A stretch of DNA of 64,000 bases from an uncultured Bacilli bacterium (GTDB lineage Bacteria > Bacillota_I > Bacilli_A > RF39 > UBA660), in NCBI GenBank assembly GCA_934087065.1, contig CAKOIS010000002.1, forward strand, positions 11,880 through 75,879. Reading direction: 5' to 3'. This document shows positions 3,351 to 46,931 of this stretch, one piece after another. The first letter of the stretch is position 1. Each line of letters opens with the position of its first letter. The notes under the pieces are model-generated. The model did no database searches. It was not told where the DNA came from and was given only the letters and a program-made list of their open reading frames with translations. Made by a program: the position numbers and the translations under genes.

Positions 3351-4322
3351 ATGAAAGAATTTTTTAAAACAAATGGAAAAGGAATAATTATAGGTTTAGT
3401 AGTAGGTGTACTAGTAATGTATATTTTCTGGCCTAAGAGAATTGCTAAGTTAGAAAATGGAGAAGAAGTATCAATTACTGTTAAAGATCAAACTATAACA
3501 GCAGACTCACTTTACAGTGGATTAAAACTAAAATATGGTGCTAGTGAAATAGTACAACAAGTAGATAAATTAATACTTGATAAGAAGTACGAATTAACAG
3601 AAAGTGATTTAGAAGAAATCAATAAATCAAAAGAAAATTACTATTCAACATATAAAAGCTATTATGGAATAACAAAAGAACAATTTTTAAAACAAAATAA
3701 CTTTGACTCAGAAGAAGACTTTGTAGAATACTTAAAATTAGAGTATAAAAGAAACCTTTTAGTAGAAGAATACTTAAAAGCAAAAGTAACAGACGAAGAT
3801 ATTAAAGAATATTACAAAGAAAACTATTTTGCCCCATTTAAAGTGGAACACATACTAGTTAAAACTTCTTCTAGTGTTACAAAAGATGAAGCTAAAGCTA
3901 CTGCAGAAAAAATACTAAAAGCACTTAAAGGTGGAAGTTCTTGGGAAGATGTTAAAACTAAATACAAAGATGATATAACAACAGAAAACTTTACAGTAGA
4001 GTTTGACTCTAGTTTAGAAGAAAATTTTGTAAAAGCTGCTAAAAAACTAAAAGATAATAAATATACTACAAGCTTAGTAGAAACATCTTATGGTTACCAT
4101 ATTATATTAAGAACAGAAACAAAAGAAAAAGAAAGTGTTTCTGACATAAAAGATAGAGTAATAACTAAAGTTGTATCTCAAGAAAAAAACAAAGATACTA
4201 ATTATTACCAAAAGACTTTAGTAATAATGAGAAAAGAAGCTGGAATGGAAATAAAAGATACAGAACTAAAAAAAGTATACGATAATTTTGTAAGTAGTTT
4301 AGAAACAACAAAAAGTGAGTAA
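3351..4322 (+). CDS. membrane-anchored PpiC/parvulin-type peptidyl-prolyl isomerase (PrsA-like foldase)
   Basis: N-terminal TM helix. Parvulin-like core (HILVK...SYGYHII). K/E-rich, similar to PrsA family proteins. Confidence 0.6.
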   Translation: MKEFFKTNGKGIIIGLVVGVLVMYIFWPKRIAKLENGEEVSITVKDQTITADSLYSGLKLKYGASEIVQQVDKLILDKKYELTESDLEEINKSKENYYSTYKSYYGITKEQFLKQNNFDSEEDFVEYLKLEYKRNLLVEEYLKAKVTDEDIKEYYKENYFAPFKVEHILVKTSSSVTKDEAKATAEKILKALKGGSSWEDVKTKYKDDITTENFTVEFDSSLEENFVKAAKKLKDNKYTTSLVETSYGYHIILRTETKEKESVSDIKDRVITKVVSQEKNKDTNYYQKTLVIMRKEAGMEIKDTELKKVYDNFVSSLETTKSE

Positions 4323-4359: not shown

Positions 4360-4567
4360 TGATAACATTATCTTGTAATAGTGAGAGTAACAAAAATTCT
4401 CAAGTTTTAAAAAACAAAGGAGAGATACACATGAAAACAAAATACACTTTAAAACCTAGTATGGGGGGGGGTTATTTAACTAGCGTAAATAACTATAGTT
4501 TTCATGTGCAATTAAATGGATAGAATAATTCTACCCATTTTTTCGTGTGTAAGAAAAGAGGTAAGGT
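4360..4567 (+). promoter_or_regulatory. conserved leader, copy 1: palindrome gataacattatc, uORF (4431-4484) containing a G9 tract (4463-4471), and a hairpin plus T-run (about 4505-4535)
   Basis: About 80% nucleotide identity with the leaders at 23205-23405, 33855-34049 and 45105-45302. The G-tract length differs between copies. Confidence 0.6.
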
Positions 4568-4810
4568 ATGACAAATGAAGAATTAAAGAAAATTGTTGGA
4601 AGAAACGTAAAAAAGTATAGGCTTATATATAATGCGTACAACAAAGAAAAACTTACTCAGAAAGACTTAGCTGAAAAGATAGGTGCAAAGACACCTCTTA
4701 TAGGTGCTTTAGAAAGCGAGAACAACAACATGGGAATAAGTATATATAACTTATATATGATAAGTAAAGTACTAAATGTACCAATAGAAAAGTTTTTTGA
4801 GGAGGAATAA
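4568..4810 (+). CDS. XRE-family helix-turn-helix transcriptional regulator (80 aa)
   Basis: HTH_3-like segment LTQKDLAEKIGAKTPLIGALE. Lies between the conserved leader and paralog 1, and only in this copy. Confidence 0.55.
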   Translation: MTNEELKKIVGRNVKKYRLIYNAYNKEKLTQKDLAEKIGAKTPLIGALESENNNMGISIYNLYMISKVLNVPIEKFFEEE

Positions 4811-4815
4811 AGTAT

Positions 4816-7308
4816 ATGAAGAATAAAAAAGGAATGATATATGGAGTACTATTAATGACTTGTTTAGTAATAGGTTTATCTTATGGAGCATTTATATTTA
4901 GTACAGATAAATATAGAAGTAGTGAATTATTAATAAGTAAGTTAAACTATAGTATAGATATACAAGAAGACGGAAGTAATAAGTCTACAATTAATGGAAG
5001 TTCAGTAACAGTACCAGCTAGTACTAAAGTATATTTAAATATTACTTTAACAAGTGTAAATGAAATAGATAGTAAATATACTTTAGCATATAAAACTAGC
5101 ACAAACGCTAAAGTAGAGTACTCAGATAGAACACCATGGAACACACAAGGAGTAATAAAAGGAATAGACAGTAACACTTATTCAAAAAAGATAAGAGTAG
5201 TAATAGATAACACAAATATCTCAACACCATCTACAGTAAACTTTCAAGTATATGGTGGATACTCATTTAACTCATATGCAAATATAGAACTAACTGATGG
5301 ATATGTATCAGTAAGTGGACCATACACAGAAGTTGCAACAAACATAGGAAATAGACTAGTAGATATAATAGAAAGTGATACAAGTTGTTTAACAAGTAAT
5401 TCTAACACTTGCTTGTATGGTGGAGAGAACATTAAAAACTATGTACAATACCCAGAAGACAATGACAAAACAAAGAACTTATGGAGAATAATAGGAAGTT
5501 ATCAAATAGAAGATCAAACACTACCAAAACTAATAAGTCAAAGTACAAGTAGTACTAGTACTTCAACACTAACAACAGACTTAACAAGTTTCTATAACAC
5601 ATTAGAAGATAAAGAAGTATTAGTACAACAAACAAATAAATTTAATTGTTTTACTAATACTTGTGTAGAAAGCACTTACAACAATATTGGCTTACTAACA
5701 GACTATGAATATAATCAAATAGGTGGAGTAAACTCATACTTAGCAACTACAGAAAAATATTACATAAATAGTTCTAGCGGAATAAAAGAAGTAACATCAA
5801 GTGGGATAACAAACCCAAGTAATACAAGTGGACTAAAACCAACAATATACTTACAAACTGGAGTACAAGTAACAGGAAGTGGAACAGTGAGTGACCCATA
5901 CATCATAAGTCCAGCAAGTGATATAAATTTAGTTGCTTATACATTAAATGGACAAGCAACAGATAAAAATTATGCAGATTTACTTAAAACAAATGTAGTA
6001 GATAAAGTAACATGTAAAAACGGAACAACAGCAACATGGGACAATACAGATTTTTCAATAAAATTAAAGAATATACATACACCAGACTATTGTACAATTG
6101 ATTTTGGAGATGGATACAGTGTTAGTTTAACAGCAACAAATGGTACAGTAAGTCCATCAAATATAACTGTAGGATATAATGGAAGTGCAAGTTTTACTGT
6201 AACACCTAACAGTGGATATAAACTAGAACTTGAAACAAACACATGTGGCGGAACACTATCAGGAAGTACATATACAATAAGTAATGTAACAAGTGCAAAA
6301 AGTTGTAGTATAACATTCAAGTCTTCTACACAAACATTATATGCTAAACTGCTTGCTGATAAATCAACAGTATTAACAAGAACAGACTTTAGTAAAGTTT
6401 TAACAAATGACAATACAAACACATTATATACAGGAACAGAGAATGGAACAACAGTATATTATTTTGCAGGGAATGCAACAGATAATTGGGTAAAGTTTGG
6501 AAAGAATGCAACTAATCAAGACTTATACTGGAGAATAATAAGAACAAACTCAGATGGTGGAGTAAGACTACTATACCATGGAACAAGTACTACAGCAACA
6601 GATGCGGTTATAAACACAAGTACAGCATTTAATACAACATATAATAACCCAATGTATGTAGGATATATGTATGGAACAAGCGGTTCATTAGTAAATAATA
6701 GAACAAATACAAATAATAGTACAATAAAAGGAATAATAGATACATGGTATGAAAATAATCTAAAAACTAACTATACAAAATACTTAAGTACAACAGCAGT
6801 ATATTGCAATGATAGAAGTAACCCAGCAGGTGGATATAACACTGGAGGTACAACATTCTACTATGGTGGATATACACGATTAATAACAAATAAAACACCA
6901 ACATATGACTGTACAGACACTAACGATAAATTCACAGTAGACACAAGTACAGGAAACGGGAAACTAACATACCCAATAGCATTAATGACAGCAGACGAAG
7001 TAAGTTTTGCAGGTGGACTAGCGGGAACAAACGCACCAACATGGTATTATTATAATAGTGCAAAGGGTAGCTCAACAGGTGACACCAGGTGGTGGCTGTT
7101 GTCTCCTTACTATTGGAGTAGCGGCCACGCTTACGTGTTTCGCGTGTACGGTTCGTCCTACCCTGGCCGCTTGAACTACAACAACGTCAACTACACCGCT
7201 CTTGGTGTTCGTCCGGCAGTTTCTCTCAAATCTTGTATCAAGACAAGTGGAGGAGATGGCTCGGCAAACGCACCATACACAATAGAAGAAAGTACAAGTG
7301 GGTGCTAA
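4816..7308 (+). CDS. secreted/surface protein, paralog 1 (830 aa). N-terminal signal anchor and S/T-rich linker. The C-terminal half is homologous to paralogs 2-4 and ends in an adenine-depleted hypervariable domain (WWLLSP...GVRPAVSLKSC)
   Basis: RBS gaggagg. The C-terminal ~330 aa align with ORFs 23406, 34050 and 45303. Terminal CLec/DUF1566-like pattern (YW..S...AY.V.F.V.G....GVRP). Confidence 0.8.
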   Translation: MKNKKGMIYGVLLMTCLVIGLSYGAFIFSTDKYRSSELLISKLNYSIDIQEDGSNKSTINGSSVTVPASTKVYLNITLTSVNEIDSKYTLAYKTSTNAKVEYSDRTPWNTQGVIKGIDSNTYSKKIRVVIDNTNISTPSTVNFQVYGGYSFNSYANIELTDGYVSVSGPYTEVATNIGNRLVDIIESDTSCLTSNSNTCLYGGENIKNYVQYPEDNDKTKNLWRIIGSYQIEDQTLPKLISQSTSSTSTSTLTTDLTSFYNTLEDKEVLVQQTNKFNCFTNTCVESTYNNIGLLTDYEYNQIGGVNSYLATTEKYYINSSSGIKEVTSSGITNPSNTSGLKPTIYLQTGVQVTGSGTVSDPYIISPASDINLVAYTLNGQATDKNYADLLKTNVVDKVTCKNGTTATWDNTDFSIKLKNIHTPDYCTIDFGDGYSVSLTATNGTVSPSNITVGYNGSASFTVTPNSGYKLELETNTCGGTLSGSTYTISNVTSAKSCSITFKSSTQTLYAKLLADKSTVLTRTDFSKVLTNDNTNTLYTGTENGTTVYYFAGNATDNWVKFGKNATNQDLYWRIIRTNSDGGVRLLYHGTSTTATDAVINTSTAFNTTYNNPMYVGYMYGTSGSLVNNRTNTNNSTIKGIIDTWYENNLKTNYTKYLSTTAVYCNDRSNPAGGYNTGGTTFYYGGYTRLITNKTPTYDCTDTNDKFTVDTSTGNGKLTYPIALMTADEVSFAGGLAGTNAPTWYYYNSAKGSSTGDTRWWLLSPYYWSSGHAYVFRVYGSSYPGRLNYNNVNYTALGVRPAVSLKSCIKTSGGDGSANAPYTIEESTSGC
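7090..7227 (+). other. putative DGR variable region (VR) of paralog 1
   Basis: A-depleted, GC-rich stretch in an AT-rich gene. The codons that vary against paralogs 2-4 are NNC (tac, cac, cgc, aac, acc). Conserved scaffold codons lack A. A conserved 3' boundary (gtttctctcaaatcttgtgtcaagacaag) contains a small inverted repeat. Confidence 0.55.
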
Positions 7309-7427
7309 TGACCCCATTAACTTAACTGTGTCTAACGATTAATTTACTAATATAATTACTAATAAGTAATCTAAGAGTTAAATGATAGTTTATATAATAA
7401 GATATATGAGTAAAAAAGTCAACAAAA

Positions 7428-7468: not shown

Positions 7469-7492
7469 GTATACTAAATTAAAACAGTAGAA

Positions 7493-8845
7493 CTAAAACT
7501 CTACTGTTTCTACATTGCTTTGTATTTGATTATTTATTTGTTGTACTTGCTGTGTTACTTGTGGAGTAGGTTGCTGCTGTGGTGTTTCTTTTATACTGTG
7601 GGCTTTTTGTGCCATCTTTAGGTTTGCAACTAAGTTATCGTCTTTGTAAGCTGTCATATCATTTTCTAAGTCAACTATCTTTAGTATTTCTTCAAATGAT
7701 GTTTCTCCTTCAACAACTTTGTTTAACCCATCTTGTAATAGTGTAACAACTTCTCCAGTATAAACTAAATCTCTTAGAACGTGTTTAGGAGCATTATTAG
7801 TAATTGCGTCTTTTATTTTTTCATTCATTACTAGTACTTCTAGTATTGCAAGTCTTCCTCTATAACCATGGTTACATCTAGGACAGCCTTCTTTATTTGC
7901 AACATACATTTCATTTATATCTTTTCCTATAACTGTTTTAAATACTTGTTTTTCATATTCTGTAGTTTGTCTTTTAATCATACAGTTAGGACATAATTTT
8001 CTAGCAAGTCTTTGACTTATTATTCCTTCAAGTGAGCTACCAAGTAAGTATCTTTCTACATCCATATCAGTAAGTCTTTCAATAGTATTAAGTGAGTTAT
8101 TAGTGTGTAGTGTACTAAGAACTAAGTGTCCAGTAATTGAAGCACGTACGGCAATTCTAGCTGTTTCATCATCACGAATTTCTCCGATCATTATTATATT
8201 AGGGTCTTGTCTTAAAATACTTCTTAAAATAGTAGCAAATGTAAGACCAATTTCAGTTTGAGTTTGAACTTGGTTAATACCAGCAATATCCATTTCAACT
8301 GGGTCTTCAACTGTTATGATGTTAACTTCTTCAGTATTAAGCTTTTGAAGAATAGAGTACAAAGTAGTACTTTTACCAGTTCCAGTAGCACCAGTAACTA
8401 AGATAATTCCATTAGGTATTCTAATTAATTTATTAATCTTTTCCATCGCGTCTTTACTAAAGCCTAAGTTATCAAGTCCAGCTAAACTCATAGAGTAGTC
8501 TAGAATTCTTATAACTATTTTTTCTGCATTATTTGTAGGTAGTGTACTTACACGCAAATCAAGTAGTCTATCTCCAATTTTACTCTTAATCGCACCATCT
8601 TGAGGAAGACGCGTTTCCATTATATTCATACCGGCTATCATTTTGATACGACTTATCATATTTCTTTTATATTTACTAGGGACTATACTGTAATCACTTA
8701 ATATACCATCAATTCTAAAACGAATTTTCAAAGAGTCTTTAGATGGGTCAAAGTGAATATCACTTGCGCCCTTATTAACTGCGTCTATTATAATTTCATT
8801 TGCTATTTCAACAATAGGTAATTTTTCAAAATTAAATTCTTTCAT
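7493..8845 (-). CDS. pilB: type IV pilus assembly ATPase (PilB/GspE family)
   Basis: Walker A GATGTGKSTT. GspE-type Asp/His boxes. Tetracysteine C-x-x-C...C-x-x-C motif. 450 aa. Confidence 0.85.
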   Translation of the reverse strand: MKEFNFEKLPIVEIANEIIIDAVNKGASDIHFDPSKDSLKIRFRIDGILSDYSIVPSKYKRNMISRIKMIAGMNIMETRLPQDGAIKSKIGDRLLDLRVSTLPTNNAEKIVIRILDYSMSLAGLDNLGFSKDAMEKINKLIRIPNGIILVTGATGTGKSTTLYSILQKLNTEEVNIITVEDPVEMDIAGINQVQTQTEIGLTFATILRSILRQDPNIIMIGEIRDDETARIAVRASITGHLVLSTLHTNNSLNTIERLTDMDVERYLLGSSLEGIISQRLARKLCPNCMIKRQTTEYEKQVFKTVIGKDINEMYVANKEGCPRCNHGYRGRLAILEVLVMNEKIKDAITNNAPKHVLRDLVYTGEVVTLLQDGLNKVVEGETSFEEILKIVDLENDMTAYKDDNLVANLKMAQKAHSIKETPQQQPTPQVTQQVQQINNQIQSNVETVEF

Positions 8846-23209: not shown

Positions 23210-23405
23210 AAAATGATAAGATTATCTTGTAATAAAGATAGGAAGTGAAGCACATGGAAGTTAATTCTTTAGTACAAAACAAAGTACAAATTGGGGGGGG
23301 GTTATTTAAATAGTATAAATAACTATAGTTTTTCATGTGCAATTATATGGATAGAATAAGTCTACCCATTTTTTCGTGTCTTAAAAAGAAAGGAGTGCAT
23401 TAAAT
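23205..23405 (+). promoter_or_regulatory. conserved leader, copy 2: palindrome gataagattatc, uORF from ATG 23255, G10 tract 23293-23302, hairpin plus T-run about 23346-23372
   Basis: Homologous to the leaders at 4360, 33855 and 45105. Confidence 0.6.
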
Positions 23406-24905
23406 ATGCAAAGGAAACAATTAACACTTGTAATAGTAAGCTTACTAGTAGTAGTACTAAGTGTATCACTTGCTTACTTTACAGCACAAATAATAGGAAA
23501 GGGAAAAGATGTAAGTGTAACAAGCGCAAACCTACAAATAGTATTTACAGATAGTGATGGAGCTTTAACAGAAACTGATATAGAACCTGGCTGGACTAAA
23601 ACTAAAACATTTACTATTAAAAATGATACTAAGATAGAATACAAATATAATATAGTAATAAAAGACTTATTAAATACTTTTGTAACTAATGGATACTTAA
23701 AGTACAAGATAACTAGTACAAATAATGGATATAATATGACTGAGTTTAAAGATATTCCAAAGTCTAGTGCACCTAAAGATACAATATTAGCTTATAGTGT
23801 AGTAATACCTAATGGAGTAACACAAAGTTATACAATTGAATTTAAGTATGCAAACGATGAAAGTGTAGACCAAAGTGATGATATGGGTAAGAAACTAAGT
23901 GGAACACTATTTATAACTGAGGAAACAGAAGATCCAAACAAAACACTATATAATCAATTACTTGTAGACAAATCAAAAGTATTAACAAGAACAGACTTTA
24001 GTAAAGTTTTAATAGATAATAATACAAACACATTATATACTTCTACTGAAGATAGTAAAACAGTATATTATTTTGCAGGGAATGCAACAGATAACTGGGT
24101 AAAGTTTGGAAAGAATGCAAGTAATCAAGACTTGTACTGGAGAATAATAAGAACAAACTCAGATGGTAGTGTAAGACTTCTTTACCACGGAACAAGTACT
24201 ACAGCAACAGATGCATATATTGGTGAATCAGCATTTAATAATAGTAGTTATACTAATATAGCATATGTAAGTTATATGTACGGAAGTACAGGAAGTATAG
24301 CAAATGCTAGAACTAACCAAAAAAACTCTAGTACAATAAAAGACAAAATAGATAACTGGTATAAAATCAACTTAGAAGCAAAAGGTTATACAAAATACTT
24401 AAGTACAACAGCAGTATATTGTAATGATAGAACATATGCAGTATCTGGAGATACATACTTTGGAGCATACACAAGACTAATAACAAATAAAACACCAAGT
24501 TATGACTGTGCAACAACAGAAGACAAATTCACAGTAGACACAAGTACAGGTAACGGAAAACTAACATATCCAATAGCATTAATGACAGCAGACGAAGTAA
24601 GTTTTGCAGGTGGACGATATGGTACAAATGCACCAACATGGTATTATTATAATAGTGCAAATGGTAGTTCTACAGAATCAAATGCTTGGTGGTTGTTGTC
24701 TTCTCGCAATTGGAATGGCGGCGACGCTATTGTGTTCTTCGTGTATGGTTCGTCCGAACAACCTGGCAATTTGAGCAACAGTAGGGTTGACGGCACTTAC
24801 GGTGTGCGTCCAGCCTTATCACTAAAATCTTGTGTAAAATATGCAAGTGGAGATGGCTCAGCAAGTGACCCATACACAATAAAAGAAACTACAAATGGAT
24901 GCTAA
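23406..24905 (+). CDS. secreted/surface protein, paralog 2 (499 aa) with C-terminal A-depleted hypervariable domain
   Basis: N-terminal signal anchor MQRKQLTLVIVSLLVVVLSVSLA. First ~170 aa nearly identical to paralogs 3 and 4. C-terminus WWLLSS...GVRPALSLKSC. Confidence 0.85.
   Translation: MQRKQLTLVIVSLLVVVLSVSLAYFTAQIIGKGKDVSVTSANLQIVFTDSDGALTETDIEPGWTKTKTFTIKNDTKIEYKYNIVIKDLLNTFVTNGYLKYKITSTNNGYNMTEFKDIPKSSAPKDTILAYSVVIPNGVTQSYTIEFKYANDESVDQSDDMGKKLSGTLFITEETEDPNKTLYNQLLVDKSKVLTRTDFSKVLIDNNTNTLYTSTEDSKTVYYFAGNATDNWVKFGKNASNQDLYWRIIRTNSDGSVRLLYHGTSTTATDAYIGESAFNNSSYTNIAYVSYMYGSTGSIANARTNQKNSSTIKDKIDNWYKINLEAKGYTKYLSTTAVYCNDRTYAVSGDTYFGAYTRLITNKTPSYDCATTEDKFTVDTSTGNGKLTYPIALMTADEVSFAGGRYGTNAPTWYYYNSANGSSTESNAWWLLSSRNWNGGDAIVFFVYGSSEQPGNLSNSRVDGTYGVRPALSLKSCVKYASGDGSASDPYTIKETTNGC
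24687..24824 (+). other. putative DGR variable region (VR) of paralog 2
   Basis: A-depleted. Variable NNC/NNT codons (cgc, aat, ggc, gac, att, ttc, agc, aac, agt, gac, ggc, act, tac). One extra codon relative to copies 1 and 3. Confidence 0.5.
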
Positions 24906-33854: not shown

Positions 33855-34049
33855 TTTTTTGATAAGATTATCTTGTAATAAAGATAGGAAGTGAAGTACA
33901 TGAAAATTAACTCTTTAGTACAAAATAAAGTACAAAATGGGGGGGGGTTATTTAACTAGCATAAATAACTATAGTTTTTCATGTGCAATTAAATGGATAG
34001 AATAAGTCTATCCATTTTTCGTGTCTTAAAAAGAAAGGAGAGCATTAAT
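33855..34049 (+). promoter_or_regulatory. conserved leader, copy 3: palindrome gataagattatc, uORF from ATG 33900, G9 tract 33939-33947, perfect 11-bp hairpin plus T-run about 33991-34026
   Basis: Homologous to the other three leaders. The hairpin aaatggataga-ataag-tctatccattt is followed by tttcgtg. Confidence 0.6.
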
Positions 34050-35531
34050 ATGCAACGAAAACAATTAACACTTGTAATAGTAAGCTTACTTGTAGTAGTA
34101 CTAAGTGTATCACTAGCTTACTTTACAGCACAAATAATAGGAAAGGGGAAAACTGTAGACGTTAGTAGTGCTAACTTACAAATAGTATTTACAGATAGTG
34201 ATGGAGCTTTAACAGAAACTGATATAGAACCAGGCTGGAGTGCAACTAAAACATTTACTATTAAAAATGATACTAAGACAGAATACAAATATAATATAGT
34301 AATAAAAGACTTATTAAATACTTTTGTAACAGAAGGATATTTACAATACAAAATAACTAGTACAAACGATGGATATAATATGACTGAGTTTAAAGATATT
34401 CCAAAGTCTAGTATAGCAACAGATACAATACTAGCTTATAGTGTAGTAATACCTAATGGAGTAACACAAAGTTACACAATTGAATTTAAGTATGCAAACG
34501 ATGAAAGTGTAGACCAAAGTGATGATATGGGTAAGAAACTAAGTGGAACATTATTTATAACTGAAGGAACAGAAGATCCAAATAAAACACTATATAATCA
34601 ATTACTTGTAGACAAATCAACAGTATTAACAAGAACAGACTTTAGTAAAGTTTTAACAGATAATAATACAAACACATTATATACTTCTACTGAAGACAGT
34701 AAAACAGTATATTATTTTGCAGGGAATGCAACAGATAACTGGGTAAAGTTTGGAAAGAATGAAAGTAATCAAGATTTATACTGGAGAATAATAAGAACAA
34801 ACTCAGATGGTGGAGTAAGACTACTATATCATGGCACAAGTACTACAGCAACAGACGCATATATAGGAATATCAAAATTTAATACAGAATATAATGATCC
34901 AATGTATGTAGGATATATGTATGGAACAAGCGGATCACTAGTAAACAACAGAACAAATATAAGTGATAGTACAATAAAAACAACACTAGATAATTGGTAT
35001 AAAGATAATTTGAATACAAATTATGGAAAATACTTAAGTACAACAGCAGTATATTGTAACGATAGAAGTACATCAAATGATACATCCTTTGGAGCATTCA
35101 CAAGACTAAAAACAAATAAAACACCAAGTTATGACTGTGCAGCAACAGAAGACAAATTCACAGTAGATAATAGTACAGGCAACGGTAAACTAACATACCC
35201 AATAGCCTTAATGACAGCAGACGAAGTAAGTTTTGCAGGTGGACTATGGGCAACAAATGCTTCTACTTGGTATTATTATAATAGTGCAAACGGAAGCTCA
35301 ACAGGCTCAAACTGGTGGTGGTTGTTGTCTCCTCGCCTTTGGATTGGCGGCTACGCTAGCGTGTTCAACGTGAACGGTTCGTCCGGCCCTGGCCGCTTGT
35401 ACTTCGACGACGTCAACAACTCTTACGGTGTGCGTCCGTCAGTTTCTCTCAAATCTTGTGTCAAGACAAGTGGTGGAGATGGCTCAGCAAGCACACCATA
35501 CACAATAGAAGAAACTTCAAGTGGATGCTAA
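34050..35531 (+). CDS. secreted/surface protein, paralog 3 (493 aa; start moved from 33993 to the conserved MQRKQ ATG)
   Basis: RBS aaaggagag plus ATG 34050 is the position conserved in paralogs 2 and 4. C-terminus WWLLSP...GVRPSVSLKSC. Confidence 0.85.
   Translation: MQRKQLTLVIVSLLVVVLSVSLAYFTAQIIGKGKTVDVSSANLQIVFTDSDGALTETDIEPGWSATKTFTIKNDTKTEYKYNIVIKDLLNTFVTEGYLQYKITSTNDGYNMTEFKDIPKSSIATDTILAYSVVIPNGVTQSYTIEFKYANDESVDQSDDMGKKLSGTLFITEGTEDPNKTLYNQLLVDKSTVLTRTDFSKVLTDNNTNTLYTSTEDSKTVYYFAGNATDNWVKFGKNESNQDLYWRIIRTNSDGGVRLLYHGTSTTATDAYIGISKFNTEYNDPMYVGYMYGTSGSLVNNRTNISDSTIKTTLDNWYKDNLNTNYGKYLSTTAVYCNDRSTSNDTSFGAFTRLKTNKTPSYDCAATEDKFTVDNSTGNGKLTYPIALMTADEVSFAGGLWATNASTWYYYNSANGSSTGSNWWWLLSPRLWIGGYASVFNVNGSSGPGRLYFDDVNNSYGVRPSVSLKSCVKTSGGDGSASTPYTIEETSSGC
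35313..35450 (+). other. putative DGR variable region (VR) of paralog 3
   Basis: 17 A in about 138 nt within an AT-rich genome. All but one A lie in NNC codons (att, tac, agc, aac, aac, tac, gac, gac, aac, aac, tac). Scaffold codons (tgg tgg ttg ttg tct cct ... ggt tcg tcc ... cct ggc cgc ttg ... ggt gtg cgt ccg) are A-free. Confidence 0.55.
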
Positions 35532-40896: not shown

Positions 40897-41004
40897 TTAT
40901 TTGTTTCTCAAGGCGTATTCACTTGAAAAACCGCTCAGAATAGGTTGTAAAAGGTTAAACCTTACCTCAATGGCGCGTCTTATTATTTAAAGGAGGTATG
41001 AAAA

Positions 41005-45104: not shown

Positions 45105-45302
45105 TTTTTTTGATATCATTAATTATGTAATAAAGATAGGAAGTGAAGTACATGAAAATTAACTCTTTAGTACAAAATAAAGTACAATATGGGGGGGGTT
45201 ATTTAAATAGTATAAATAACTATAGTTTTTCATGTGCAATTAAATGGATAGAATAAGTCTATCCATTTTTTCGTGTCTTAAAAAGAAAGGAGAGCATTAA
45301 AT
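45105..45302 (+). promoter_or_regulatory. conserved leader, copy 4: uORF from ATG 45152, G8 tract 45191-45198, perfect hairpin plus T-run about 45239-45272
   Basis: Homologous to the other leaders. With 8 G the uORF stays in frame through the left arm of the hairpin and stops at the TAA in its loop. Confidence 0.6.
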
Positions 45303-46931
45303 ATGCAACGAAAACAATTAACACTTGTAATAGTAAGCTTACTTGTAGTAGTACTAACTGTATCACTAGCTTACTTTACCGTACAAATAATAGGAAAGGG
45401 GAAATCTGTAGACGTAACAAGTGCTAACTTACAAATAGTATTCACAGATAGTGATGGAGCTTTAACAGAAACTGATATAGAACCTGGCTGGACTAAAACT
45501 AAAACATTTACTATTAAAAATGATACTAAGATAGAATACAAATATAATATAGTAATAAAAGACTTATTAAATACTTTTGTAACTAATGGATACTTAAAGT
45601 ACAAGATAACTAGTACAAATAATGGATATAATATGACTGAGTTTAAAGATATTCCAAAGTCTAGTGCACCTAAAGATACAATATTAGCTTATAGTGTAGT
45701 AATACCTAATGGAGTAACACAAAGTTATACAATTGAATTTAAGTATGCAAACGATGAAAGTGTAGACCAAAGTGATGATATGGGTAAGAAACTAAGTGGA
45801 ACTCTTTATATAGAGAAAGGGACTTTACCAACGTTAAGTGAGAAACTTTTTGCTGATAACCCAACAATACAAACAAGAAGTTCATTTGATGCAGTATTTA
45901 CTGAAACAAACACAGGAACTTTATATAAAGCAACAGAAAGTATAGCAGGTAGTCCTGCAAAAGATGTGTATTACTTTGCAGGAGATGCAAAGAATAACTG
46001 GGTTAATTTTGGAAAATATCAAACAGATTATGTTGTCTATAGAGGTTATTCTGAAACAGGCAGTAAATACATAGATTATTTGACAATGGATGCATGTACT
46101 AGTGCCTCAAATTATAATATTAATTGTACTGAACAAATATATTGGAATAAGGGTAATGATATATACTGGAGAATAGTAAGAACAAACTACGATGGAAGTG
46201 TAAAACTTCTATATGCGGGAAATAGCCCTGATACAACAAGTGGATACATAGGAACAAGTGCATTCAATAGCACAAATAATGATTCAATGTATGTAGGATA
46301 TAAATATGGTACAAGTGGGACTCTAGCAAATAACAGATTAAATACAAATGATAGTACAATAAAAACTTTTATAGATAACTGGTATAGTAATAACTTAACA
46401 AGTTATACAAAATATATAAGTACAGAAGCAGTATATTGTAATGACAGAAAAGCACTAAGCTATAGTATAAGTAGTTCTTTTGATTACTATGTACAAACAA
46501 GACTAGGTGCAGGAAATCCAACATATGATTGTGAAGATAGTAGTGATGCATTTTCAGGAAGTAATAGTGAAGCAAAATTAACACACCCAATAGGACTAAT
46601 GACAGCAGATGAAATAACATATGCAGGTGGTAAAGATACTACAGGCTTAACAAGTCCATATGCATGGTATTATCTAAACAGTGCTGGGGAAAGTATAACC
46701 GGAACACAATGGTGGTGGTCCTTGTCACCTCGACTCTGGAATGGTGTCATTTCGTACGTTTGGTTCGTTTTTGGTTCTTCTATTCCGGGTGCCCTTTTGA
46801 GCACCGCCGATGTGAACTTTGAGAATGGTGTTCGCCCCGCCATTTCTCTCAAATCTTGTGTCAAGACAAGTGGTGGAGATGGTTCAGCTAGTAACCCATA
46901 CACAATACAAGAAACAGCAAGTGGTTGTTAA
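45303..46931 (+). CDS. secreted/surface protein, paralog 4 (542 aa), with a more divergent C-terminal half and an A-depleted hypervariable terminal domain
   Basis: The N-terminal 170 aa are nearly identical to paralogs 2 and 3. The C-terminal domain WWWSLSP...GVRPAISLKSC is related but more diverged. Confidence 0.85.
   Translation: MQRKQLTLVIVSLLVVVLTVSLAYFTVQIIGKGKSVDVTSANLQIVFTDSDGALTETDIEPGWTKTKTFTIKNDTKIEYKYNIVIKDLLNTFVTNGYLKYKITSTNNGYNMTEFKDIPKSSAPKDTILAYSVVIPNGVTQSYTIEFKYANDESVDQSDDMGKKLSGTLYIEKGTLPTLSEKLFADNPTIQTRSSFDAVFTETNTGTLYKATESIAGSPAKDVYYFAGDAKNNWVNFGKYQTDYVVYRGYSETGSKYIDYLTMDACTSASNYNINCTEQIYWNKGNDIYWRIVRTNYDGSVKLLYAGNSPDTTSGYIGTSAFNSTNNDSMYVGYKYGTSGTLANNRLNTNDSTIKTFIDNWYSNNLTSYTKYISTEAVYCNDRKALSYSISSSFDYYVQTRLGAGNPTYDCEDSSDAFSGSNSEAKLTHPIGLMTADEITYAGGKDTTGLTSPYAWYYLNSAGESITGTQWWWSLSPRLWNGVISYVWFVFGSSIPGALLSTADVNFENGVRPAISLKSCVKTSGGDGSASNPYTIQETASGC
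46710..46850 (+). other. putative DGR-type variable region (VR) of paralog 4, a divergent class
   Basis: About 12% A. The conserved 3' boundary tttctctcaaatcttgtgtcaagacaagtggtggagatgg is shared with copies 1 and 3. Confidence 0.45.

What the first reader, a model, noticed from the sequence alone, without database searches (positions are those of the whole stretch)
7090..7227. Same A-depleted NNC-variable block at the C-terminus of paralog 1 (830-aa mosaic protein)
Paralog 1 has an unrelated N-terminal half but carries the same terminal module. Its VR-like block uses the identical A-free scaffold (ggttcgtcc, cctggccgcttg, ggtgttcgtccg, gtttctctc) and differs from copies 2-4 at NNC codons (tac, tat, agt, agc, cac, tac, cgc, tac, tac, aac, tac, aac, aac, aac, tac, acc). 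It retains several aac codons, as expected for a VR close to its template. A direct side effect is visible: the A-depleted plus strand leaves no stop codons on the minus strand, producing a spurious 81-aa antisense ORF (7072-7317).
Basis: partly seen in the sequence, partly recalled or inferred. Interest (0 to 1): 0.8.

Follow-up and report, generated by a model that had tools for sequence, protein, structure and literature searches.

The report
Static, orphaned DGR variable region
The GC-rich, adenine-poor block at the end of this 830-aa gut-bacterial protein was written by a diversity-generating retroelement, a known kind of system; its template and reverse transcriptase are absent from the window, and this copy looks frozen.

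Summary
Window 7093-7226 has 15% A and 54% GC, against 40% A and 29% GC for the window. None of its 42 codons ends in A, and only the four paralog termini reach 50% GC anywhere in the 64 kb.

I inferred a template repeat (TR) from an alignment of the variable blocks. A 33-nt guess hit 11 human-gut metagenome contigs, and every hit was that TR: non-coding, 131-132 nt, 36 adenines. It lies just downstream of a paralog gene and upstream of MutS-like, unknown, Avd-like and DGR-type reverse transcriptase genes.

Against these TRs, p1 differs at 17 of 36 adenines but at only 4 of 95 other bases (p=3e-8). It also carries one extra codon. So the block is a DGR variable region in a C-type-lectin-like (DUF6273-type) domain.

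No TR or RT occurs in the window, in 10 kb beyond either end in syntenic strains, or beside 46 related loci.

This VR is identical in 13 of 15 near-identical proteins from other assemblies and in three strains whose gene differs at 44-48 other sites. The three informative non-A changes are G:C>A:T. The copy therefore looks orphaned and static. Paralog 3 matches the TR perfectly; paralogs 2 and 4 are progressively decayed.

It is a new member of a known kind.

The parts
4816..7308 (+). Paralog 1 gene (830 aa). It has a hydrophobic N-terminal signal or anchor and a strain-variable N-terminal half. The C-terminal ~325 aa is the module shared with paralogs 2-4.
7093..7226 (+). Variable region: the stretch homologous to the 131-132-nt template repeat of the related DGR cassettes.
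   Evidence: Alignment to 8 distinct TR sequences from 11 metagenome contigs. 17 of 36 TR adenines are changed, 4 of 95 non-adenines are changed, and there is one 3-nt insertion; Fisher p=2.7e-8. Composition outlier.
7195..7203 (+). ACC GCT CTT: the site of the extra codon relative to the TR (ACY AAC), plus a C>T change at 7203.
   Evidence: 106 of 112 family VRs recovered among the 120 closest hits are 41 codons long; p1's is 42.
7120..7140 (+). Two non-adenine substitutions relative to the TR: G>A at 7120 (GGC>AGC) and C>T at 7140 (TTC>TTT).
   Evidence: Two cluster members (P0251, P0253) still have Gly (SGG) at the first site, the residue the TR's GGC encodes; inferred to be the ancestral state.
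7204..7226 (+). GC-rich 3' end of the VR (GGTGTTCGTCCGGCAGTTTCTCT). This is an IMH-like boundary where VR/TR homology stops.
   Evidence: VR and TR diverge right after TTTCTCT (VR ...CAAATC, TR ...AGAGTT) in all pairs. Non-A differences between cognate VR/TR pairs cluster in this segment.
7072..7317 (-). 81-aa antisense ORF. It is a compositional artefact of the A-poor + strand, not a gene.
35319..35449 (+). VR of paralog 3, the copy that conforms perfectly to the TR.
   Evidence: 20 of 36 adenines changed. The single non-A difference lies in the 3' boundary and matches other TR variants.
24690..24824 (+). VR of paralog 2, decayed.
   Evidence: 17 of 36 adenines changed, 10 of 95 non-A changed (7 of them C>T), two indels. 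The last 305 nt of p2, VR included, are identical in four assemblies in which PolA shows 0 differences in 2,586 nt.
46716..46849 (+). VR-like block of paralog 4, strongly diverged from this TR.
   Evidence: 26 of 96 non-A positions changed, plus an indel.

Best explanation
Window 7093-7226 is the variable region (VR) of a diversity-generating retroelement target. It encodes the exposed face of a C-type-lectin-like (DUF6273-type) domain at the C-terminus of a secreted or membrane-anchored protein.

How the sequence was made. A ~131-nt template repeat (TR) has this sequence: TGGYTGTTGTCTCCT AAC AAT TGG AAT GGC AGC AAC GCT AAC GTG TTC AAC GTG AAC GGT TCG TCC AAY CCT GGC AAC TTG AAC AAC AAC AAC GTC AAC AAC ACY AAC GGK GTK CGY CC... 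The TR is transcribed and then copied by a DGR reverse transcriptase that misreads template adenines. The cDNA replaces the VR, so AAC codons become NNC while every non-adenine base is copied faithfully. That accounts for the A-free, GC-rich scaffold in a 29%-GC genome.

Where the machinery is. In related strains the cassette is: target gene, ~230-nt spacer with a GC hairpin, TR, MutS-like gene, unknown gene, Avd-like gene, RT. It sits directly after one paralog and must act in trans on the others.

State of this copy. In this window the cassette is absent. The p1 copy has since gained one codon and three G:C>A:T point changes, and it is invariant among related strains. It is therefore best read as an orphaned, currently static VR: a frozen product of earlier mutagenic retrohoming.

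Shown: composition, the TR/VR relation, the cassette in relatives, absence from the window, invariance. Inferred: the retrohoming mechanism itself (from the Bordetella phage paradigm), the protein's location, and inactivity.
For: (1) Prediction test. I deduced the TR from the VR alignment alone. A 33-nt guess found 11 metagenome contigs, and all 11 were the non-coding A-rich TR.

(2) Cassette genes beside the TR:
- RT of 371 aa: RVT_1 E=1.3e-14, with LPIGNYSSQ and YMDD motifs.
- A 114-aa protein matching bAvd/DivGenRetAVD over its full length, below cut-off.
- A 133-aa protein with MutS_I above cut-off.
. This is the MSL-containing architecture D of Wu et al. 2018 (PMC5758913).

(3) Cognate VR/TR pairs on the same contigs differ almost only at adenines, e.g. 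L050 with 23 A changes and 0 non-A changes.

(4) p1 against the TR: 17/36 A changed versus 4/95 non-A changed, p=2.7e-8.

(5) Across 120 homologues, residue entropy is concentrated at the codons that are AAC/AAT in the TR and is ~0 between them.

(7) Static state:
- The VR is identical in 13 of 15 members of the P0121 cluster, whose overall identity to p1 ranges from 94.6 to 100%.
- Three strains have 44-48 nt differences in the gene, none of them after 6807.
- Every informative non-A change is G:C>A:T.
- p1 carries an extra codon.

(8) No RT motif or TR copy in the window, in 46 related loci with 10-kb flanks, or in 10 kb beyond each window end in syntenic strains.
Against: - The source genome outside the 64 kb could not be read. 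A cassette elsewhere could still rewrite p1.
- A strain of the same species (N-terminal half 95% identical) carries a long-form paralog followed by the TR at a locus not covered by this window.
- p1's 3' boundary is intact and nearly identical to that of VRs sitting next to intact cassettes.
- An indel does not by itself prove inactivity. The cassette-adjacent VR in L055 has a 12-nt insertion relative to its own TR.
- The strains that share the p1 VR are close relatives. The three strains compared at nucleotide level are also identical to the window from 6808 through the downstream spacer. Part of the invariance may therefore reflect recent common descent or a recombined segment.
- The Avd hits are below the curated cut-offs.
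Confidence: 0.8

Rival explanations
1. p1 is an active remote target. A single cassette elsewhere in the same chromosome still rewrites 7093-7226 in trans, and the invariance seen is only because the compared strains are near-clonal.
For: - Remote targets more than 100 kb from the RT are known for non-phage DGRs (PMC5758913).
- The 3' boundary is intact.
- p3 in the same window has no informative non-A mismatch.
- A same-species strain has the cassette at another locus.
- Flanks of the compared strains are very similar: PolA shows 0 differences in 2,586 nt in four assemblies.
Against: - Cluster members that share the VR differ from p1 by up to 5.4% elsewhere in the protein.
- The extra codon and three G:C>A:T changes would be erased by one full-length retrohoming event.
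- Two cluster members (P0251, P0253) differ from p1 only at the G>A site, where they have the Gly that the TR encodes. That is ordinary point mutation in a fixed sequence.
Confidence: 0.15
2. p1 is serviced by a second, slightly different template repeat of 42 codons with AAC-GGC instead of GGC-AGC near the start. It would then be a perfect VR of a TR that was not recovered.
For: p1 and the CAG:628 copy L007 both have five codons between GTC and GGT, and both have NNC-GGC where the TR has GGC-AGC.
Against: - All 11 TRs recovered are 131-132 nt and nearly identical.
- 106 of 112 recovered family VRs are 41 codons long.
- L007 and p1 disagree at a would-be scaffold base (GCG versus GCT).
- The Gly (SGG) variants in the p1 cluster point to a simple G>A change.
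- The pattern used for the search would not have matched such a TR only if its core also differed.
Confidence: 0.04
3. The block has nothing to do with a retroelement. It would be a compositional island kept by selection on the lectin fold, or spread by gene conversion among paralogs.
For: The paralogs do exchange modules. The p1-type N-terminal half is joined to many different C-terminal modules in other strains.
Against: - Gene conversion cannot explain why differences fall on positions that are adenine in an independent non-coding repeat lying next to an RT.
- It also cannot explain why synonymous scaffold bases are conserved across species while the flanks drift.
Confidence: 0.01

Closest known systems
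Treponema denticola DGR (TvpA and remote targets)
   Same: - Chromosomal, non-phage DGR with one cassette and several dispersed target genes.
- Remote targets are documented (PMC5758913).
   Different: - Per Wu et al., the Treponema cassette belongs to the HRDC-containing architecture family; this one has MutS-like plus Avd genes.
- The target domain here is DUF6273-type rather than the FGE-sulfatase type (the TvpA assignment is from memory, not tested).
- The family here is larger: at least 14 loci in MAG UBA11492.
- Many copies here are decayed.
MSL-containing DGRs (architecture D of Wu et al. 2018; includes the Legionella pneumophila DGR)
   Same: Small MutS_I-domain accessory gene together with avd, a TR and an RT, all on one strand (PMC5758913).
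   Different: - The host is a low-GC gut Bacillota lineage.
- There is an extra 118-aa gene of unknown family between the MSL and Avd genes.
- Targets are DUF6273-type lectin-like proteins.
Bordetella phage BPP-1 DGR (Mtd/TR/Avd/Brt)
   Same: - Same logic: AAC-rich TR, adenine-specific changes.
- VR at the C-terminus of a C-type-lectin fold.
- GC-rich 3' boundary.
   Different: - Here the element is not phage-borne.
- The target studied here is not adjacent to the cassette.
- No conserved hairpin downstream of the VR was apparent by eye; this was not tested.
DUF6273-type DGR targets of Faecalibacterium prophages and 'tentaclins'
   Same: Same Pfam family: weak, sub-threshold hits here, and family membership precomputed for many homologues. 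A C-lectin-like domain carries the VR (PMC10743442).
   Different: Those are phage receptor-binding proteins. These are chromosomal paralogs interleaved with housekeeping and type IV pilus-like genes.

Membership tests
DGR variable region | A cognate template repeat exists, and VR/TR differences are confined to TR adenines | tested here: met
   TRs come from 11 contigs of related strains. p1 has 17/36 A changed versus 4/95 non-A changed, p=2.7e-8, plus one 3-nt insertion.
DGR variable region | TR and RT are present in the same genome as the VR | not testable with these tools
   Absent from the 64-kb window and from 10 kb beyond each end in syntenic strains. The rest of the source genome could not be retrieved.
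DGR variable region | DGR-clade reverse transcriptase next to the TR (motif-4 [LIV]GxxxSQ, YxDD) | tested here: met
   Met in relatives only: a 371-aa RT with RVT_1 E=1.3e-14, LPIGNYSSQ and YMDD. No phylogenetic placement was done.
DGR variable region | Avd-type accessory protein in the cassette | tested here: inconclusive
   The 114-aa protein matches over its full length but below cut-off. bAvd scores 28.3 bits against a cut-off of 40; NF033474 scores 28.5 against 80.
DGR variable region | VR lies at the C-terminus of the target within a C-type-lectin (or Ig) fold | tested here: met
DGR variable region | IMH-type 3' boundary that directs homing | tested here: inconclusive
   VR/TR homology stops sharply after the GC-rich GGTGTKCGYCCG..TTTCTCT. 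Non-A differences of cognate pairs cluster there. Function was not tested.
DGR variable region | This VR is currently diversifying (adenine-site variation among close relatives) | tested here: not met
   Identical in 13 of 15 cluster members and in L058, L065 and L066. The family as a whole does vary at these sites. L051 and L053 differ only at A sites in the 3' part.
MSL-type DGR cassette (architecture D, Wu et al. 2018) | Small MutS-like accessory gene together with avd | tested here: met
   The 133-aa ORF hits MutS_I with E=1.8e-7, 31.8 bits against a cut-off of 20.6. The definition comes from PMC5758913. This holds for relatives only.

The most novel reading that the evidence does not exclude
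One small MSL/Avd-type DGR cassette may service, in trans, a very large dispersed family of lectin-like surface proteins (4 copies in this 64 kb; at least 14 loci in one related MAG).

That family would then be varied by three layers acting together:
- adenine mutagenesis of the VR;
- recombinational swapping of whole N- and C-terminal modules between loci;
- poly-G (G8-G10) tracts in a conserved leader uORF/terminator that could switch each copy on or off.

Individual VRs would be repeatedly 'parked' as frozen alleles (p1, p2) and one or a few kept live (p3). The array would work as an archive of past binding specificities rather than a set of dead copies.
Probability: 0.2. Interest if true: 0.6.

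Novelty: new member of a known kind. Interest (0 to 1): 0.35.

Why it matters
The result confirms that a reader working from raw sequence can spot DGR variable regions when the template and reverse transcriptase are not in view. It also shows that the template can be reconstructed from the VR copies alone and then recovered from metagenomes.

Biologically, it documents a common human-gut Bacillota lineage (relatives: Clostridium sp. CAG:628, UBA11492). In this lineage many dispersed lectin-like surface proteins carry DGR-written ends, in states ranging from perfect to frozen to decayed. That gives a natural series for asking how remote targets are gained, kept and lost.

The element and its mechanism are of a known kind, so the finding is useful annotation rather than a surprise.

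Tried and rejected
- **RT motifs.** Six-frame YxDD scans of the window, of 46 GTDB loci (527 kb) and of the later loci (SQ...YxDD scan) found only chance hits.
- **A-rich VR copy.** Sensitive blastn of the VR against the window and the 46 loci found none.
- **Pattern searches.** The first degenerate scaffold pattern in genome contigs gave 0 hits, so the source species is not among the GTDB representatives as searched. The TR pattern in viral contigs gave 0 hits, which argues against a phage-borne cassette.
- **Exact-protein look-ups.** p1, T2SSE, P0242, P0255 and ParE were not on record, so the source contig (123,711 nt) could not be read beyond the window.
- **Walking off the window ends.** Identical proteins in syntenic strains showed only housekeeping genes.
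- **Testing whether p3 is live.** The only contig recovered (L078) is 100% identical to the window over 10.7 kb, so it is uninformative. All other contigs break at the paralogs.
- **Positional orthology of L055.** I first took L055 as the positional orthologue of the p1 locus carrying a cassette, then withdrew that. Long-form genes with the same HTH and N-terminus occupy other loci in other strains, so orthology by position is not established.
- **Indel as proof of inactivity.** I rejected 'an indel proves inactivity' after seeing a 12-nt insertion in a cassette-adjacent VR.
Full report
**1. The observation**

It closes an 830-aa ORF (4816-7308). The ORF's last ~325 residues are shared with three paralogs ending at 24905, 35531 and 46931.

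Over the 135 nt from 7093, adenine is 14.8% and G+C is 54.1%. The window means are 40.3% and 28.8% (z = -4.2 and +4.5). Only 35 of 63,866 windows are as extreme on both measures, and all lie in p1 or p3. The four paralog termini are the only places in the window that reach 50% G+C. None of the 42 codons ends in A, whereas 398 of 758 do in the rest of the gene.

The 81-aa antisense ORF (7072-7317) exists and follows from the composition.

The 'identical scaffold' claim holds only for paralog 3. Two of the four quoted strings are absent or mismatched in paralogs 2 and 4.

**2. Context**

The window is a bacterial chromosome with 29% G+C. It carries housekeeping genes (Dxs, PPDK, PolA, GyrB/ParE) and type IV pilus-like genes (T2SSE, T2SSF, prepilin peptidase, pilins) interleaved with the paralogs.

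Relatives in GTDB are uncultured human-gut Bacillota: Clostridium sp. CAG:628, UBA11492 and several 'Bacilli bacterium' MAGs. Each has many copies of the family, for example at least 14 loci in UBA11492. The family is huge: more than 6,400 proteins among the candidates scored.

Across the 120 closest proteins, residue entropy is near zero everywhere except at a comb of positions inside the block.

**3. Finding the template**

No RT motif and no A-rich copy of the block occurs in the window or in 46 related loci with up to 10-kb flanks, 527 kb in total.

I therefore aligned 20 VR blocks codon by codon. Scaffold bases were conserved across species even at synonymous sites. The variable codons were NNC/NNT.

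Replacing the variable positions with A gave a predicted template. A 33-nt piece of it (GTGTTCAACGTGAACGGTTCGTCCAAYCCTGGC) matched 11 human-gut metagenome contigs and no viral contig. Every match was the predicted element:
- a non-coding repeat of 131-132 nt with 36 adenines (16 AAY codons plus AGC, ACY and two adenines in the 3' boundary, ...CAATTT...);
- about 230 nt downstream of the stop codon of a paralog gene;
- followed by ORFs of 133, 118, 114 and 371 aa.

The 371-aa protein is a reverse transcriptase (RVT_1, E=1.3e-14) with LPIGNYSSQ and YMDD motifs. The 114-aa protein matches bAvd/DivGenRetAVD over its full length but below cut-off. The 133-aa protein has a MutS_I domain above cut-off. 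This is the MSL+Avd architecture D of Wu et al. 2018 (PMC5758913).

Cognate VR/TR pairs on those contigs differ almost only at adenines. L050 has 23 A changes and 0 others. L051, L053 and L056 each have one non-A change, at the 3' boundary.

**4. The four window copies against the template**

| Copy | TR adenines changed | Non-A changed | Indels |
|---|---|---|---|
| p3 | 20/36 | 1/95 (in the 3' boundary; matches other TR variants) | none |
| p1 | 17/36 | 4/95 | one extra codon at 7195-7203 |
| p2 | 17/36 | 10/95 (7 are C>T) | two |
| p4 | 22/35 | 26/96 | one |

- p3 is a perfect VR.
- For p1 the Fisher test gives p=2.7e-8. Its non-A changes are G>A at 7120, C>T at 7140, C>T at 7203 and G>T at 7209. 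The last one matches other TR variants.

The DGR origin of the block is thus established as far as sequence can establish it.

**5. Fold**

- dozens of C-type lectin domains;

Pfam gives sub-threshold DUF6273 hits for p1 and p2. DUF6273 has been described as a C-lectin-like DGR target in phages (PMC10743442).

**6. Is this copy live?**

Several results say no:
- The window has no cassette. After the p1 stop codon there are 184 nt and then a convergent T2SSE gene. The cassette-bearing loci instead continue with a conserved GC hairpin and the TR.
- Syntenic strains show only housekeeping genes for 10 kb beyond either window end.
- The P0121 cluster holds 15 listed proteins from other assemblies. 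Thirteen have exactly p1's VR, although they differ from p1 by up to 5.4% elsewhere. Two (P0251, P0253) differ only by Gly for Ser at the G>A site, the residue the TR encodes.
- Three strains (L058, L065, L066) differ from the window at 44-48 nucleotides in the gene. None of these lies after 6807, and the downstream spacer is identical.
- The last 305 nt of p2, VR included, are likewise identical in four assemblies.
- 106 of the 112 VRs recovered among the 120 closest family hits have 41 codons. p1 has 42.

By contrast, proteins with the p1-type N-terminal half and 41-codon VRs carry many different VRs that differ at the AAC positions. L051 and L053 share a TR and the first 80 nt of the VR but differ at adenine sites in the 3' 50 nt. 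The system therefore does diversify in nature.

Caveats:
- The rest of the source genome could not be read.
- A same-species strain has a long-form paralog followed by the TR at a locus outside this window.
- p1's 3' boundary is intact.
- A cassette-adjacent VR (L055) has a 12-nt insertion, so indels alone do not prove inactivity.
- The only extra p3 sequence obtained is from the same clone.

**7. Mechanism**

- Shown: a TR with 36 adenines; VR copies that differ from it at adenines; an RT/Avd-like/MutS-like cassette beside the TR in relatives.
- Inferred from the established DGR paradigm (Bordetella phage BPP-1; review and survey in PMC5758913): TR RNA is reverse-transcribed with adenine-specific misincorporation, and the cDNA replaces the VR from a 3' GC-rich boundary. 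Sixteen AAY codons plus two single-A codons allow roughly 10^20 protein variants (my arithmetic: 15^16 x 16).
- Inferred: the protein is exported or anchored by its hydrophobic N-terminus and binds a ligand through the lectin-like face.

For p1 in this strain, the most likely state is a fixed allele left by earlier retrohoming.

**8. Verdict**

The identification as a DGR VR is correct. It is a new member of a known kind: an MSL/Avd-type chromosomal DGR with dispersed targets. This copy is probably static, and whether the genome still holds the cassette is unresolved.

Interest is moderate to low. The more interesting aspects are the size and mosaic nature of the target family, the decay series among copies, and the poly-G leaders noted below.

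Noticed in passing
window 4461-4567; also ~23291-23405, ~33937-34050, ~45188-45302: Each paralog is preceded by a conserved leader. It contains an RBS and a short uORF (MKTKYTLKPSMGGG...) that holds a poly-G tract: G9, G9, G9 and G8 in the window, G10 in L060, G9 in L059. A hairpin (ATGGATAG...CTAYCCAT) plus a T-run follows, just before the gene's RBS. G8-G10 tracts in a 29%-GC genome suggest slipped-strand phase variation or attenuation control of each DGR target.
   Followed up: partly
window 4816-6333 (p1 N-terminal half); proteins P0121-P0240: The p1-type N-terminal half (93-98% identical) is fused in other assemblies to many different C-terminal modules. One is a 767-aa form without any GC-rich VR, seen in about half of the 120 best hits. 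Long forms with the same HTH gene occupy the p2 and p3 positions in another strain (L060). This points to module shuffling between loci by recombination.
   Followed up: partly
window 4558 (left breakpoint) compared with L058: A strain 98.2% identical from 4558 rightwards has entirely different genes to the left of the HTH gene and lacks the poly-G leader. L065 and L066 share the window's left flank. The paralog leaders therefore coincide with rearrangement breakpoints.
   Followed up: no
window 24690-24824 and 46716-46849; L019:1147-1269: There is a decay series of VRs. p2 has mostly C>T changes and indels. p4 is very diverged. One CAG:628 copy (L019) has drifted to NNT codons and 45% GC. Old VRs erode toward the genome's AT-rich composition.
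   Followed up: partly
L055, L054, L051, L056, L059: the ~230 nt between target stop codon and TR: A conserved GC-rich hairpin (CCGTCCGAAAACCCTTTCGGACGG) and further conserved non-coding sequence lie between the target gene and the TR. About 250 nt of conserved non-coding sequence follows the TR. These may be the terminator of the target gene and/or structured parts of the DGR RNA.
   Followed up: no
L049:1064-1417 (and the same ORF in L052, L054, L056): A conserved 118-aa ORF with no Pfam or NCBIfam match sits between the MutS-like and Avd-like genes of the cassette. It is a possible additional DGR accessory protein.
   Followed up: no
L055:~3580-3720 (VR of the cassette-adjacent gene): This VR carries a 12-nt insertion relative to its own TR, a duplication of the NNT-TGG-NNT motif. 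It is otherwise changed only at adenines.
   Followed up: no
window 4568-4810: An 80-aa HTH (Xre-type) gene sits between the leader and the long-form paralog p1, and before long forms in L055, L059 and L060. The short-form paralogs p2-p4 lack it.
   Followed up: no
window 7487-7673: This is the only other strongly A-poor stretch on the + strand (A as low as 11.7% per 120 nt). It covers the 3' end of the convergent T2SSE gene on the - strand. Its cause was not determined: my check translated it out of frame, so nothing can be said about its coding content. It is not GC-rich and did not match the VR block in the blastn search of the window.
   Followed up: no
window 40919-40990: Rfam L21 leader upstream of rplU, the only Rfam hit in the window.
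   Followed up: no
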